From an uncultured bacterium (GTDB lineage: Bacteria; Planctomycetota; UBA1135; GCA-002686595): a stretch of 64,000 nt of DNA. Where the stretch lies: NCBI GenBank assembly GCA_943787795.1, contig CALSNU010000003.1:448001-512000 (forward strand), read 5' to 3'. Numbering within the stretch: position 1 is the first letter of the stretch; each line of letters starts with the position of its first letter. Of this stretch, positions 18,001-21,000 are shown in pieces. The position numbers were made by a program.

Positions 18001-21000
18001 GCTCCTGATCACCATGGATACGACCCGGGCGGACCACCTGGGCGCGTACGGTCAGGTCCGATTCGAGACACCTGCCCTGGACGCGTTGGCTTCCGAGGGG
18101 GTGGTCTTCGAGCAGTGCAGCTCCGCAGCCGCGACGACGCTGAGCTCCCACGCGTCCCTCATGACGGGCGCCTATCCGCTGCGACATGGTGTCGTTCGCA
18201 ACGGGTTCAGCGTGCATCCCTCCAACAGGACGCTGGCGGAGGCCCTCAGTGACGCCGGGTTCCGGTGCGCCGCGTTCGTCGCGTCCTCTGCGCTGGTCTC
18301 GGCCACCGGGATGAACCAGGGCTTCGGCGTCTACGACGAGCGCCTCGACCTCCCCGCCTCACCGGGCGGAAACGACCAGGCGCAGCGCCGCGCGGGCTCC
18401 GTCACCGACGCGGTGCTCGCGCACGTGGACGAGCAAGAGGCTGCCGGAGCAGAAGGAGGCCTCTTCCTCTTTGCCCACTACTTCGACCCCCACGCTCCCT
18501 ACGGGGCCCCGGGTTCGGGGGACGTGGGCGGCTTCGGGGACATCGAGTCCGCCGTTGGCGCGCAGCAGCAGCGCGTGCTCGGAGAGGGACCCGGCCAGCA
18601 GGCGGTGATCGGCGGCGGGCTGCCCGCAGCCCTCGCCGGGCCGACGGGCGCCGTCCCGAGCCCTGCGGACGAGCGCCTGGCTGCCCTCTATGGCGCGGAG
18701 GTCGAGTACATGGACGGGGAGATCGGGCGGCTATTGGCCGGGCTGGCGTCCCGGGGCGTGCTCGAGGAGACCCTGGTGGTGATCACCGCGGATCACGGCG
18801 AGACGTTCTGGGAGCAGGGCAACTTCTGGAATCACGGGCTCTGGGTCGGAGAGACGGACGTGCACGTGCCGCTCATCGTCCGCGGCCCCGGCGCGGCCCG
18901 CGGCGCCCGGGTCTCCACGCCGGTCTCAGGGGTCGACGTGGCGCCGACGATCCTGGATGCGGTCGGGCTGGCGCCGGGGCCGGGCGATGACCCGGGCCGC
19001 GGCCGGAGCCTCCTCCCTGCCCTGAGCGGCGCGGAGATGCCTCGGCGAGCCGTGTTCTCCGAGGCGACTCAGCCCGGACCCCGCCTCGAGGGGGCCGAGG
19101 GTCTCCCCTGGGCCGGGGCCGCCAAGCCCCAGGCGGTCCGCCTCGGTCCGTGGAAACTGGTCAAGGCGCCTTACCTCGGCGTGCGTCAGCTCTTCGACCT
19201 CGCCAGTGATCCGGGAGAGCGCCGGGACCTCCTCGCGGACCCTGTGTTGACGCCCACGTCGCGGGACGCGCTCGAGGACCTGGAGCGTGCCCACGCGGTC
19301 TGGGTCGGCGCCGCCGCGCCGCGGCCCTCTGCCTACGACCCGGACCAGGCTGAGGCGCTCCGCAGCCTCGGGTACGGCGGCGATCGGTGAACCTCCGTCG
19401 CGGCGCCTGCTCGCGCGGCTCTCAGCGCAGTGACCTTCAGTCCGCGTGACGGGCACCCGGGCGACTCACGATGCCAGACCGAGTGGCCCGCGGGAAGGCG
19501 CCAAACGGTCAGGCGACGACCCTGCCGGCCAGCTCCAGGGCTTGTCACCGAGTTCAAGAGGGCCTGCTTCACTCGCTGCGTTGGTCCGAAGCGCAGCGCT
19601 CAATGGGGGAGCCACGCCCACCCGGGCTCCGCCGTCCAGGCCATCGCAATCGGCGAGCATCCCGGGGGCCTCCGCCATCGGCGGTCATTCCCCCCCCCGC
19701 GGTCGTCAGCCGCGCGGGATGGGTCACTCGAAGCTGCCGTGGTGGCGATAGAAGAAGCGGTGGAGGACCTTGCCGTCACGGACGAGCTCGCCGTCCACGA
19801 AGTAGAGGGGGAGCCGCTGATCGCCAGCCTCGGTGCGCTCCGCGTTCATGGCGAGCCGGATGCGGTCACCCGCCTCCACGGAGAAGGGACGGACCGGGAA
19901 GAACGACTGACGCCAGTGGGTGGGCGGGACCATGGGGGAGCAGGACAGCTCCACGTCCGGGGTCAGGTCCACCTCGAACCAGCCGCCGAAGCCGTGCACG
20001 GTGCCGGCGCGCTCGACCAGGAGGGTCGCGGCGGTGGTGAAGAAGAAGTCATCTGCGCAGGCATGGTCGAGGTCGATGTCCAGCACGTCGGCGGGGGTGC
20101 CGAGGAGCGACGCCGGCTTGAGATCGCAGGCCGCGGTGATGAGGCTCTGCACCTCAGCCTCGATCAGGCGGGAGTAGTCGAGGCCGTAGACCGGGCGCTC
20201 CCACAGGCCGAGCCCGAGGTCCTGGTGCACGTGGCTGTCGTCCACGGGCGCGACGCAGAGCCGGAGGGTCCGCGGCAGCATGTGGCCGCCAGGCTTCATG
20301 TAGCGGTCGCGGGCGTCGATCACCGACTCGAACATCAGCTCAGCCAGGCCAAAGAAGCCCATCCACTCGGAGATGATGAGGTCGTAGTCCCCCTCGAGGT
20401 CCAGGTCCTCCATCCGTCCGCGGTGGAAGGTGATGCGGTCCCCGAGGCCGTTGTCGGCGGCCACGTCTCGGGCCACGTCGATGATGGCCGACGAGTCCAC
20501 CGCGTCCACGTGGGCGGCCCCAGCGCGGGCCGCGAACATCGACAGGATGCCAGTGCCGGTCCCCACGTCGAGCACGCGCTTGCCCTTCGCCACGGACTCG
20601 ATCGCCCGGCGATAGCTGTCCGTGCGGGCGTGATCCTGGATCATGAGCCGGTGGACGCCGGGGTCCGCGTAGCTCGCGAAGTAATCGTGGTCGCTCGAAT
20701 AGCCTTCAGACATGGGCGGGAGGGTGCCAGAGGGTCGGGTCACGGGGTTCAGAATTCGGCGGTTGGCAAGAAAAGAGCATTGGGGGCAAGGAGCGCCGCT
20801 CGATGGCTGAGGGCAGGGAGCGCGGGTTGAGCAGGTGATGGTTGAGATCGGACCTCGCGGGTTCCTATCGTCGTGCCATGGCGAGCGAGACGACCCAGGC
20901 CGGTCCGGCCGCGCGCGCTGCCGCGGCAGGCGCGCTCGACCCCGGCGCCCTCTTCACGCTGGAGGAGGCGGCGGGTCGGGTGCGCGTTCCCATCGAGGAT

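What a model noticed while it worked through the whole genome (the two positions that open the first line are those of the whole stretch)
19724..20713. Eukaryote-type protein arginine methyltransferase (PRMT1-like) beside RGG-tailed RNA enzymes
g02122 is a full-length type I protein arginine methyltransferase of the eukaryotic PRMT1/Hmt1 kind, 39% identical to yeast Hmt1 over 290 residues, with all the active-site signature elements. Only three proteins in the proteome have long Arg-Gly-rich tails, the classical PRMT1 substrate motif. All three are RNA enzymes: TruD g02454, the RhlE-type helicase g03551 and the pseudouridine synthase g01243. They are candidate substrates.
Evidence so far: The five best Swiss-Prot hits are all eukaryotic PRMT1/6/8 (E 4e-50), and Pfam PRMT_C scores 69.6 bits. 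The sequence shows YFxxY, motif I VLDVGTGTG, the double-E loop SEWMGF and the THW loop. In relatives.tsv, PRMT_C is in 15 of 17 genus, 51 of 173 family, 52 of 338 order, 115 of 4992 phylum, 2934 of 189,784 bacterial and 21 of 10,118 archaeal genomes. A six-frame search found it in 5 of 61 order genomes, all in this family. A proteome scan for 60-aa windows with at least 60% Arg plus Gly found 3 of 3665 proteins.
(Added by a program. Inside this text positions count along the whole contig: contig position 448,001 is position 1 of the stretch shown here. "Call 12" and the like, gene names such as g00115 and contig names such as C1 are that model's own, and its searches are not shown. The text may have been shortened before it was handed on; [...] marks where a part breaks off. 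The agent that wrote the report below was given it as the finding of a first reader that could run no searches.)

Follow-up and report, generated by a model that had tools for sequence, protein, structure and literature searches.

The report
Stand-alone bacterial protein arginine methyltransferase
A marine planctomycete of the Saltatorellus group carries an intact, well-conserved enzyme built like the eukaryotic PRMT1 arginine methyltransferase; several of its RNA-handling proteins have arginine-glycine tails that could be targets, but that link is not shown.

Summary
The gene is real. Window 19724-20713 (minus strand) encodes a 329-aa protein with every sequence and fold hallmark of a type I protein arginine methyltransferase (PRMT1/Hmt1 kind). 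These are motif I, the double-E loop, the THW loop, both product-specificity methionines, the beta-barrel and the dimerisation arm. The model has pLDDT 92 and TM 0.89 to human PRMT1. The gene is single-copy and under strong purifying selection (dN/dS 0.01-0.03). It is inherited vertically in about 54 of 174 genomes of the Saltatorellus family.

In a 52-row tree it falls in a broad bacterial radiation, outside the clan of eight sampled eukaryotic PRMT1/3 sequences. So it shares the eukaryotic architecture but is not a recent import. It stands alone, with no biosynthetic cluster and no conserved partner gene. Public records call it 'L11 methyltransferase' or a generic methyltransferase.

The substrate idea is only partly upheld. 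RG/RGG tails occur in more than three proteins: TruD, RhlE, an RluB-like synthase, a DbpA-domain protein, a second DEAD helicase, ribosomal protein uS3 and Tpt1. These genes lie on other contigs. The tails also occur in relatives without the enzyme. TruD shows no association. The uS3 and RhlE trends cannot be separated from shared ancestry, because only 2-3 independent contrasts exist. Verdict: a new, unstudied member of a known enzyme family, testable in a cultured relative.

The parts
19724..20713 (-). PRMT coding sequence, 329 aa plus stop (ATG at 20711-20713, stop at 19724-19726)
   Evidence: ORF list and translation. PRMT_C scores 70.4 bits. PDB best hits are PRMT1/Hmt1 at E 3e-51. The ATG start is shared by 11 of 11 genus orthologues, and dN/dS is 0.01-0.03 for close pairs.
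20669..20683 (-). YFxxY motif (YFASY, residues 11-15) of the N-terminal helix that closes over SAM
   Evidence: Coordinates and peptide. Y11 is kept in 16 of 19 aligned relatives and Y15 in 17 of 19. The model places a helix at 7-14.
20642..20644 (-). Met24, which aligns with the Met of the 'EEM' stretch of yeast Hmt1. This is the first product-specificity methionine of type I enzymes (the name rat PRMT1 Met48 is recalled).
   Evidence: Alignment to Hmt1. Met in 17 of 19 relatives.
20549..20575 (-). Motif I VLDVGTGTG (residues 47-55), the SAM-binding glycine loop
   Evidence: V47, D49, G51, G53 and G55 are invariant in 19 sequences of 34-81% identity.
20333..20371 (-). Double-E loop SEWMGFFGLAELM (residues 115-127), with catalytic E116 and E125 and the second specificity methionine M127
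   Evidence: E116, W117, G119 and E125 are invariant in 19 of 19. M127 is kept in 17 of 19.
20138..20236 (-). Dimerisation arm (residues about 160-192), inserted in the beta-barrel
   Evidence: Helices at 160-166, 169-172 and 182-188 in the model. Residues 164-192 form the predicted homodimer interface with residues 17-35, 54-63 and 80-88 of the partner.
19913..19921 (-). THW loop (T265-H266-W267)
   Evidence: Invariant in 19 of 19.
19727..20260 (-). C-terminal beta-barrel domain (PRMT_C, residues about 152-329), ending without any extra tail domain
   Evidence: The Pfam PRMT_C match covers residues 152-294. Strands run to residue 325 in the model. Whole-length superposition on PRMT1, 3 and 8 gives TM 0.86-0.91.

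Best explanation
The gene encodes an active, cytoplasmic, homodimeric type I protein arginine methyltransferase. Inferred mechanism, from the family: SAM binds in the Rossmann domain under the N-terminal YFxxY helix. The two glutamates of the double-E loop (E116, E125) and the THW loop position a substrate arginine's guanidino group. Met24 and Met127 shape the pocket so that the products are monomethyl- and asymmetric dimethyl-arginine. The arm of one subunit packs on the SAM-binding domain of the other, giving the ring-shaped dimer that type I enzymes need for activity.

The enzyme belongs to a bacterial lineage of PRMTs and has been passed down vertically in the Saltatorellus family of Planctomycetota. 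It is a single, monocistronic housekeeping-type gene.

Its most likely substrates are the arginine-glycine-rich disordered tails found on this organism's RNA-handling proteins. Ribosomal protein uS3 is the most consistent candidate. The others are the RhlE and DeaD/DbpA-type helicases, the RluB-like and TruD pseudouridine synthases, and Tpt1. Methylation would tune their RNA binding or self-association.

Shown here: the gene, fold, residues, conservation and descent. Inferred: catalysis, product type and the dimer. Speculative: the identity of the substrates.
For: Enzyme identity.
- PRMT_C scores 70.4 bits, with Rossmann methyltransferase domains alongside. PDB hits are PRMT1/Hmt1 at E 3e-51.
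- AF2 model: pLDDT 92, pTM 0.89. TM 0.89 to human PRMT1 6nt2 and 0.86-0.91 to rat PRMT1, T. brucei PRMT1 and PRMT8.
- Motif I, E116, W117, G119, E125 and T265-H266-W267 are invariant in 19 relatives of 34-81% identity.
- Both specificity methionines are kept in 17 of 19. The protein is acidic, pI 4.9.
- Dimer prediction: ipSAE 0.78 against a best control of 0.00. The runs share at least 59% of contacts and pLDDT is at least 89. In the tool's calibration the mark was reached by 20 of 30 proteins solved as pairs of one chain and 1 of 23 solved as single chains. The interface is the arm on the partner's SAM domain. PRMT dimers are solved, so this shows likeness.

Functional constraint and descent.
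- dN/dS is 0.010-0.032 at dS 0.37-0.70.
- Orthologues run from 99% down to 43% identity in the family and are consistent within genera: g1 16/17, g23 7/8, g24 5/5, g27 6/6.
- A PRMT/4-TM protein/M18 peptidase block is shared by six genera.
- PRMT is present in 13 of 14 rows of one major species clade.

Stand-alone type.
- Neighbours are a sulfatase (convergent) and a low-complexity protein (divergent). There are no RiPP or NRPS genes.

Substrate pool.
- RG/RGG tails sit on TruD, RhlE, a DbpA-domain protein, a DEAD/DbpA helicase, uS3, Tpt1 and an RluB-like synthase.
- All 14 PRMT-bearing genera with a uS3 hit have RGG in the uS3 tail. The median RGG/GGR count is 5, against 1.5 in 12 PRMT-lacking genera.

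Transcription hint.
- RNA-library contigs from three studies cover parts of the gene at 99-100% identity.
Against: There is no activity, product or substrate measurement.

Substrate link.
- TruD tails show no association: median RGG/GGR count 6 against 5, naive p 0.93. Very RG-rich tails occur in PRMT-lacking G023, G015, G014 and G012. PRMT-bearing G054, G011, G048 and G104 have no tail.
- PRMT-lacking G006 and G013 also have RGG-rich uS3 tails.
- PRMT presence is phylogenetically clustered, so only 2-3 independent contrasts exist. The sign tests have no power (median p 1).
- In other Planctomycetota families, uS3 mostly lacks a tail even where a PRMT_C gene is present, for example G472, G458 and G504.

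Other points.
- No gene is consistently linked to PRMT across the family.
- No Tudor-type reader or JMJD6-type cupin was found in this 85%-complete genome.
- The RNA-library contigs cover the flanking genes as well, and DNA carry-over cannot be excluded.
- The dimer pass may reflect memory of solved PRMT dimers.
Confidence: 0.55

Rival explanations
1. It is an active arginine methyltransferase with one or a few specific protein substrates that are not the RG/RGG tails. Examples would be a single structured site on a ribosomal, nucleoid or signalling protein, the way some eukaryotic PRMTs act on defined non-GAR sites.
For: RG-rich tails occur equally in relatives without the enzyme (TruD; uS3 in G006 and G013), so the tails do not depend on it. 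Within-family loss or absence of PRMT in many genera suggests a dispensable, specialised role. No linked partner gene points to any substrate.
Against: The closest solved and named relatives are PRMT1/Hmt1/PRMT3, whose classical substrates are GAR/RGG regions (family knowledge, recalled). The enzyme is acidic, pI 4.9. There is no extra substrate-recognition domain; the barrel ends the protein.
Confidence: 0.25
2. It is a peptide or natural-product methylase of the bacterial radiation from which eukaryotic PRMTs are said to derive. It would act on a ribosomal or non-ribosomal peptide, not on cellular proteins.
For: [quoted passage not shown] Earlier notes of this scan (unchecked) describe PRMT-fold genes in lasso and borosin clusters. 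Variants with a roughly 70-aa C-terminal extension and an altered THW loop exist in other Planctomycetota families.
Against: No biosynthetic genes lie nearby in this window or in 18 related neighbourhoods. The neighbours are a sulfatase, peptidases, citrate synthase and transporters. There is no RRE-like or other tail. All arginine-binding residues are kept, unlike 9 of 20 PRMT_C genes examined in other families.
Confidence: 0.07
3. It is an exported effector that methylates proteins of eukaryotic cells (grazers, hosts or prey) and not the bacterium's own proteins.
For: The architecture matches eukaryotic PRMT1. The clade is known for unusual cell biology and is sister to predatory planctomycetes (abstracts and passages read).
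Against: There is no signal peptide or secretion-associated domain at either end; the sequence starts MSEGYSSDHDYF and ends with the barrel. Descent is vertical, with strong purifying selection and a housekeeping-type neighbourhood. No secretion-system linkage was seen.
Confidence: 0.05
4. It is an inactive relic or pseudoenzyme that keeps the fold only.
For: None beyond the lack of experimental data.
Against: dN/dS is 0.01-0.03. Every catalytic residue is invariant across relatives. The frame is intact in 52 family genomes.
Confidence: 0.02

Closest known systems
Eukaryotic type I PRMTs of the PRMT1 kind (yeast Hmt1/Rmt1, human and rat PRMT1, PRMT8, the PRMT3 core)
   Same: Same domain order and size: N-terminal YFxxY helix, Rossmann SAM domain with motif I, double-E loop SEWMG...E, beta-barrel with dimerisation arm, THW loop. 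Both specificity methionines are present. TM is 0.86-0.91. The predicted arm-to-SAM-domain dimer matches.
   Different: Found in a bacterium. About 34-42% identical. It falls outside the clan of the eight sampled eukaryotic sequences. It has no N-terminal extension such as the PRMT3 zinc finger or the PRMT8 myristoylation region. Activity, product and substrates are untested.
Bacterial PRMT-fold methylases in peptide natural-product clusters
   Same: Same fold and the same Pfam PRMT_C barrel. Bacterial origin.
   Different: This gene stands alone, has no RRE-like or other tail, has no biosynthetic neighbours and keeps all arginine-binding residues. Of 20 PRMT_C genes examined in other Planctomycetota families, 9 lack the E/E/THW set, and 7 of these 9 carry an extension of about 70 aa.
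PrmA, ribosomal protein L11 methyltransferase (the name given to the S. ferox orthologue in public records)
   Same: Class I SAM methyltransferase core. Partial Pfam PrmA match (38.9 bits, profile positions 151-233 of 296).
   Different: No PrmA N-terminal domain. NCBIfam PrmA equivalogs score 32-48 bits against cut-offs of 183-327. The barrel, double-E and THW features are PRMT-specific. The public name is a misannotation.

Membership tests
Type I protein arginine methyltransferases (PRMT1/Hmt1 kind) | Class I Rossmann SAM-binding domain with motif I (VLDVGxGxG) | tested here: met
   VLDVGTGTG at residues 47-55. Invariant V47, D49, G51, G53, G55. Methyltransferase Pfam domains.
Type I protein arginine methyltransferases (PRMT1/Hmt1 kind) | Double-E loop with two glutamates that hold the substrate guanidinium | tested here: met
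   SEWMGFFGLAE. E116 and E125 are invariant in 19 of 19 relatives.
Type I protein arginine methyltransferases (PRMT1/Hmt1 kind) | THW loop | tested here: met
   T265-H266-W267, invariant in 19 of 19.
Type I protein arginine methyltransferases (PRMT1/Hmt1 kind) | N-terminal helix with YFxxY covering the cofactor | tested here: met
   YFASY at 11-15. Y11 in 16 of 19, Y15 in 17 of 19. Helix at 7-14 in the model.
Type I protein arginine methyltransferases (PRMT1/Hmt1 kind) | C-terminal beta-barrel (PRMT_C) with an inserted dimerisation arm | tested here: met
   PRMT_C scores 70.4 bits against a cut-off of 27. The barrel and arm helices are in the pLDDT-92 model. TM 0.86-0.91 to PRMT1, 3 and 8 over the whole length.
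Type I protein arginine methyltransferases (PRMT1/Hmt1 kind) | Head-to-tail homodimer through the arm | tested here: met
   Prediction only. ipSAE 0.78 against a best control of 0.00, with arm 164-192 on the partner's SAM domain. The pass may stem from solved PRMT dimers. Not a measurement.
Type I protein arginine methyltransferases (PRMT1/Hmt1 kind) | Type I product specificity (ADMA), marked by the two active-site methionines | tested here: inconclusive
   Met24 and Met127 are present and kept in 17 of 19 relatives. The product itself cannot be determined with these tools.
Type I protein arginine methyltransferases (PRMT1/Hmt1 kind) | SAM-dependent methylation of protein arginine | not testable with these tools
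   Needs an enzyme assay.
Type I protein arginine methyltransferases (PRMT1/Hmt1 kind) | Preference for glycine-arginine-rich (GAR/RGG) substrates | tested here: inconclusive
   Candidate tails exist. The comparative association is absent for TruD, a trend for uS3 and RhlE, and without power overall.
Natural-product-associated bacterial PRMT-fold methylases | Location in a RiPP/NRPS cluster, and/or a leader-binding tail, and/or loss of arginine-binding residues | tested here: not met
   No such neighbours in the window or in 18 related loci. The protein ends with the barrel. Catalytic residues are intact.
PrmA (L11 methyltransferase) | Full-length match to PrmA models, including the N-terminal substrate domain | tested here: not met
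   The Pfam PrmA match covers only profile positions 151-233 of 296. NCBIfam PrmA equivalogs score far below their cut-offs.

The most novel reading that the evidence does not exclude
The Saltatorellus family runs a eukaryote-like arginine-methylation layer on its RNA machinery. A housekeeping PRMT would asymmetrically dimethylate the RGG tails of ribosomal protein uS3, DEAD-box helicases and pseudouridine synthases, and so tune RNA binding or condensate formation. Stand-alone bacterial enzymes of this kind, and not peptide-antibiotic methylases, would then be the stock from which the eukaryotic PRMT1-type enzymes arose.
Probability: 0.3. Interest if true: 0.75.

Novelty: new member of a known kind. 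Interest (0 to 1): 0.5.

Why it matters
Arginine methylation of RGG regions is treated as a eukaryotic regulatory system. I found no characterised bacterial PRMT1-type enzyme in the held library (searches; no paper held both PRMT and Myxococc- or Asgard terms). Public annotation hides this family under wrong or generic names.

This is a clean case. The enzyme stands alone, is fully equipped and is strongly conserved. It occurs in a free-living lineage that has a cultured member, Saltatorellus ferox Poly30, whose enzyme is 81% identical. The same cells hold a ready pool of RGG-tailed RNA proteins.

That makes two questions directly testable. Do bacteria use ADMA marks on disordered RNA-binding tails? 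And where did the eukaryotic PRMT1 lineage come from?

It also corrects the picture given by domain counts. Only 11 of 20 PRMT_C genes examined in other Planctomycetota families keep the arginine-binding residues, so counts of PRMT_C overstate true PRMTs.

Tried and rejected
1. Raw six-frame RG scan. It gave 186 hits, mostly off-frame artefacts of 70% GC. I replaced it with a codon-position GC filter (3170 frames, 40 hits). From together I hand-picked 10 frames whose RG stretch lies inside a plausible coding part, and annotated them. N-terminal hits were dropped as lying upstream of the start.

2. Operon or partner search. The recurring neighbours are a 4-TM protein without a Pfam match and an M18 aminopeptidase. 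In this genome they form a separate pair at C6:299563-301680, so I rejected them as functional partners. The genus g27 cluster (ETF-QO, M17 peptidase, citrate synthase, EamA) looks like housekeeping synteny. RhlE lies 2.5 kb from PRMT only in genus g17.

3. Reader/eraser search. Tudor (PF00567) and Cupin_8 (PF13621) gave no match in an 85%-complete genome. JmjC and SMN models were not searched.

4. Independent-contrast tests for uS3, RhlE and TruD. Only 2-3 usable pairs exist, so nothing can be concluded.

5. Phylum-wide extension with uS3. The match table was cut (244 rows not listed). The visible rows show mostly tail-less uS3 outside the family, so I did not pursue it further.

6. Genome-wide DNA-pattern counts of RGG repeats in relatives. 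Considered and not run, because chance matches in GC-rich DNA would swamp the signal.

7. Promoter/terminator scan. It found no terminator and one promoter-like site on the opposite strand. This is uninformative for this phylum.

8. Labelling unnamed representatives. Few names came back, so the tree uses only 8 named eukaryotic sequences of PRMT1/3 type.

9. L009, L007 and the 616-aa divergent neighbour. No Pfam family even at E<=1.

10. RNA-library contigs. Gaps in cover and relative depth were not interpreted.
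Full report
THE OBSERVATION

The window has about 70% G+C throughout. On the minus strand an ORF runs from 20743 (GTG) or 20713 (ATG) to the stop at 19724. From the ATG it gives 329 residues. The ATG is the true start: 11 of 11 genus orthologues examined begin M-[S/A/T]-[E/D]-G-Y at that position.

Pfam gives PRMT_C at 70.4 bits (cut-off 27), with the usual class I methyltransferase domains over residues 43-151. Against all solved structures the best matches are yeast PRMT1/Hmt1 (9vkf, 1g6q; E 3e-51, residues 10-290). 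PRMT3, PRMT8, PRMT6, PRMT2 and CARM1 follow.

The signature elements are in the sequence:
- YFASY, residues 11-15
- VLDVGTGTG, residues 47-55
- SEWMGFFGLAELM, residues 115-127
- THW, residues 265-267

The gene is single-copy in the 4.7-Mb, 8-contig, 85%-complete genome.

THE ENZYME ITSELF

An AlphaFold2 model built on 19 relatives has mean pLDDT 92 and pTM 0.89; only residues 1-6 are uncertain. It superposes over its whole length on human PRMT1 (6nt2, TM 0.89), T. brucei PRMT1, rat PRMT1, PRMT8 and PRMT3 (TM 0.86-0.91).

In the 19-sequence alignment (34-81% identity to the query) these positions are invariant: V47, D49, G51, G53, G55, E116, W117, G119, E125, T265, H266 and W267.

The two methionines that line the type I active site are Met24 and Met127. 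Met24 aligns with the Met of Hmt1's 'EEM'. The names rat PRMT1 Met48 and Met155 are recalled. Each is kept in 17 of 19 relatives, and the protein is acidic with pI 4.9.

Two copies were predicted to dimerise with ipSAE 0.78, against 0.00 for the best of three controls. The three runs share at least 59% of contacts and pLDDT is at least 89. In the tool's calibration the mark was reached by 20 of 30 proteins solved as pairs of one chain and by 1 of 23 solved as single chains; these counts hold only roughly because my own alignment was used. The interface is the arm (residues 164-192) on the partner's SAM-binding domain (17-35, 54-63, 80-88). This is the canonical type I arrangement. Because such dimers are solved, the pass shows likeness and is not independent proof.

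Selection is strongly purifying. dN/dS is 0.010-0.032 for pairs with dS 0.37-0.70, and rises to 0.18 only where dS nears saturation.

NCBIfam has no model that reaches its cut-off. Public records call the orthologues 'ribosomal protein L11 methyltransferase' (S. ferox) or 'class I SAM-dependent methyltransferase'. The family is therefore hidden by its annotation.

WHOSE GENE IT IS, AND HOW IT IS INHERITED

Related loci carry titles of Planctomycetota MAGs and of Saltatorellus ferox Poly30, whose orthologue is 81% identical.

In the family, 57 of 174 genomes match at E<=1e-10. I count 52 full-length orthologues (E<=1e-80, 43-100% identity). Two more are split at contig ends (G125, G132). Three are weak or paralogue-like (G010, G091, G138). 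Presence is consistent within genera: g1 16/17, g23 7/8, g24 5/5, g27 6/6.

I built a species tree of 31 genomes from concatenated uS3, TruD and RhlE cores (quick IQ-TREE). PRMT is present in 13 of 14 rows of one major clade; the exception, G004, is 69% complete. In the other clade only G021, G060 and G097 carry it. The tree needs four changes in all.

Gene order agrees with old vertical descent. In six genera PRMT lies next to or near a 4-TM protein and an M18 aminopeptidase. In g27 it lies in a same-strand run: ETF-QO, M17 peptidase, citrate synthase, PRMT, EamA. In this genome the 4-TM/M18 pair sits elsewhere, at C6:299563-301680.

In the window itself PRMT is monocistronic. It lies between a convergent sulfatase (17906-19390) and a divergent 616-aa low-complexity protein (20842-22692). 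No gene is linked to PRMT across the whole family.

EUKARYOTE-TYPE, OR FROM EUKARYOTES?

The exhaustive search found 13,798 relatives at E<=1e-3 and 1,400 at E<=1e-30 among 1.84 billion representatives.

Named full-length bacterial homologues come from Myxococcota, Opitutaceae, Actinomycetes, Holophagales, Poribacteria and Pseudomonadota. Thorarchaeota sequences are 26-28% identical.

I built a 52-row tree (quick IQ-TREE, LG+C20, SH-aLRT only). The eight named eukaryotic PRMT1/3 sequences (fungi, chytrids, a stramenopile, kinetoplastids, a tick) form one clan with support 100. The Saltatorellus-family sequences cluster with a few MAG sequences (support 84-87) inside the bacterial part. The backbone is unresolved.

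So the gene is not nested among the sampled eukaryotes. Caveats: other eukaryotic classes (PRMT2, 4, 6, 7, 9) were not sampled, and the root is uncertain.

This fits the statement in PMC3417536 (passage read) that eukaryotic PRMTs derive from a bacterial radiation. That paper, however, describes the bacterial relatives as parts of secondary-metabolite operons, and this gene is not in one.

In a sample of 401 Planctomycetota genomes, PRMT_C was found in 40 (39 over the cut-off), and in none of the 11 sampled genomes of sister families of the same order. I examined 20 such genes from other families:
- 11 keep E116, E/D125 and THW.
- Only the four from family f24 have the SEW[LM]G form.
- Six from f49 have TLW and an extension of about 70 aa.
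- Three more have lost residues (f37, f35, and one from f28).

Domain counts therefore overstate true PRMTs. Earlier notes of this scan (unchecked leads) describe similar degenerate PRMT-fold genes in lasso and borosin clusters.

THE SUBSTRATE PROPOSAL

The set is wider, though.

- A stand-alone DeaD-dimerisation/DbpA-RNA-binding-domain protein carries about a dozen GGGGGGYR repeats (53 R+G in 60 aa).
- With a 40-aa window the following also qualify: ribosomal protein uS3 (tail ...GGRYDRGGPRRGSGRRGGRGRGGPRGGGGGGG...), Tpt1/KptA (RGRGRGRGRGG), a second DEAD/DbpA helicase, a HEAT-repeat protein and two proteins without a Pfam family.
- Seven of these are RNA-handling proteins.
- All lie on contigs other than the PRMT's, so 'beside' is figurative.

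I compared tails in one genome per genus, using 15 PRMT-bearing genera besides G000, 14 PRMT-lacking genera and one ambiguous genus. Not every protein was found in every genome.

- uS3. RGG/GGR counts in PRMT-bearing genera are 6, 8, 7, 7, 2, 3, 5, 3, 3, 5, 7, 1, 5, 2. In PRMT-lacking genera they are 3, 5, 0, 1, 0, 2, 2, 0, 0, 2, 0, 3. The naive Mann-Whitney p is 0.0016. PRMT-lacking G006 and G013 nevertheless have rich tails.
- RhlE. I kept only matches of at least 56% identity and dropped 2 PRMT-bearing and 5 PRMT-lacking rows as probable paralogues. The median is 3.5 against 1, p 0.059.
- TruD. The median is 6 against 5, p 0.93. The richest tails are in PRMT-lacking G023, G015 and G014. Four PRMT-bearing genomes have no tail.

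PRMT presence follows the species tree, so only 2-3 independent contrasts exist and the sign tests cannot reach significance. Outside the family, uS3 is mostly tail-less even in PRMT_C-positive genomes (visible rows).

RG-rich tails are therefore a lineage trait that exists without the enzyme. They remain the most plausible substrate pool on biochemical grounds, and uS3 is the only candidate with RGG in every PRMT-bearing genus examined. The data neither show nor exclude the link.

OTHER CHECKS

- No Tudor or Cupin_8 domain was found in the genome, so only a 'writer' is evident.
- RNA-library contigs from three studies cover parts of the gene at 99-100% identity. The flanks are covered as well and DNA carry-over is possible, so this is a hint of transcription only.
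- The consensus promoter/terminator scan was uninformative.
- Literature. Searches for bacterial or prokaryotic PRMT terms, for arginine methylation with Planctomycet-, for PRMT with Myxococc-, and for PRMT with Asgard found no paper that characterises such an enzyme in the held library. The Saltatorellota preprint and a 2026 preprint on predatory planctomycetes do not mention arginine or methyltransferases in their main text (term searches). Subscription-only literature is not covered. bioRxiv supplements were not seen.

VERDICT

This is a bona fide, stand-alone, vertically inherited bacterial type I PRMT. It is a new, uncharacterised member of a known enzyme family. Its architecture is eukaryote-like and its descent is bacterial. 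The proposed RGG-tail substrates are reasonable but unproven.

My confidence in the enzyme identity is about 0.9, and in the substrate class about 0.45. Interest is moderate. A cultured close relative makes the decisive experiments straightforward.

Noticed in passing
genome contig C4:155249-156421 (-), locus L002: A stand-alone protein of about 335 aa with a DeaD dimerisation domain and a DbpA RNA-binding domain but no helicase core. It ends in about a dozen GGGGGGYR repeats, which resemble eukaryotic RGG/Tyr low-complexity regions.
   Followed up: partly
genome contig C4:64173-65000 (-), locus L005; relatives L058-L083: Ribosomal protein uS3 carries a C-terminal RG/RGG-rich extension throughout the Saltatorellus family. 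It is richest in the clade that has PRMT. uS3 of most other Planctomycetota families ends right after the conserved core.
   Followed up: partly
genome contig C4:336514-339596 (-): truD, which carries a tail of about 200 aa rich in RGG, lies directly downstream of an RluA-type pseudouridine synthase gene on the same strand. The two stop-to-stop frames overlap.
   Followed up: no
window 16048-17634 (-) and 22896-24209 (-): A secreted glucose/sorbosone dehydrogenase-like protein and a 437-aa protein without a Pfam family cluster together by BLAST, and both carry a signal-peptide-like stretch. Their C-terminal parts look alike (...NFQCFFRDNVAGAPTFNFSNAMSVLFCP against ...WNFQYWFRDASGGAATSNTTDAVSVTFLP). 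This may be a shared sorting or anchoring domain.
   Followed up: no
window 20842-22692 (+) and 24065-25720 (+): Two long proteins with similar N-terminal regions followed by low-complexity repeats (ATQAA... and collagen-like GLAGPD...). There is no Pfam family for the first. Relatives of the second recur near PRMT in four genera.
   Followed up: no
locus L147 (G021:C5:376000-392500): In genus g17 the RhlE orthologue lies about 2.5 kb from PRMT, separated by a DUF1579 gene and an ABC-F gene. This was not seen in other genera.
   Followed up: partly
loci L254, L256, L258, L259, L261, L266 (Planctomycetota family f49): A PRMT_C subgroup with TLW in place of THW, a TEDFS-type loop in place of SEWMG, and a C-terminal extension of about 70 aa. 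It is possibly the leader-binding-tail type noted earlier in this scan.
   Followed up: partly
genome contig C3:328271-329875 (-), locus L009: A 535-aa protein without any Pfam family, even at E<=1. It ends in an RG/RS-rich tail...NRRGSARRRGRRSRGTPGAGSRRGGRGSRPGSSRRR.
   Followed up: partly
loci L187, L188 (Thorarchaeota MAGs): Asgard archaeal genes 26-28% identical to this PRMT over about 270 residues. They branch apart from both the bacterial and the eukaryotic groups in the quick tree.
   Followed up: no
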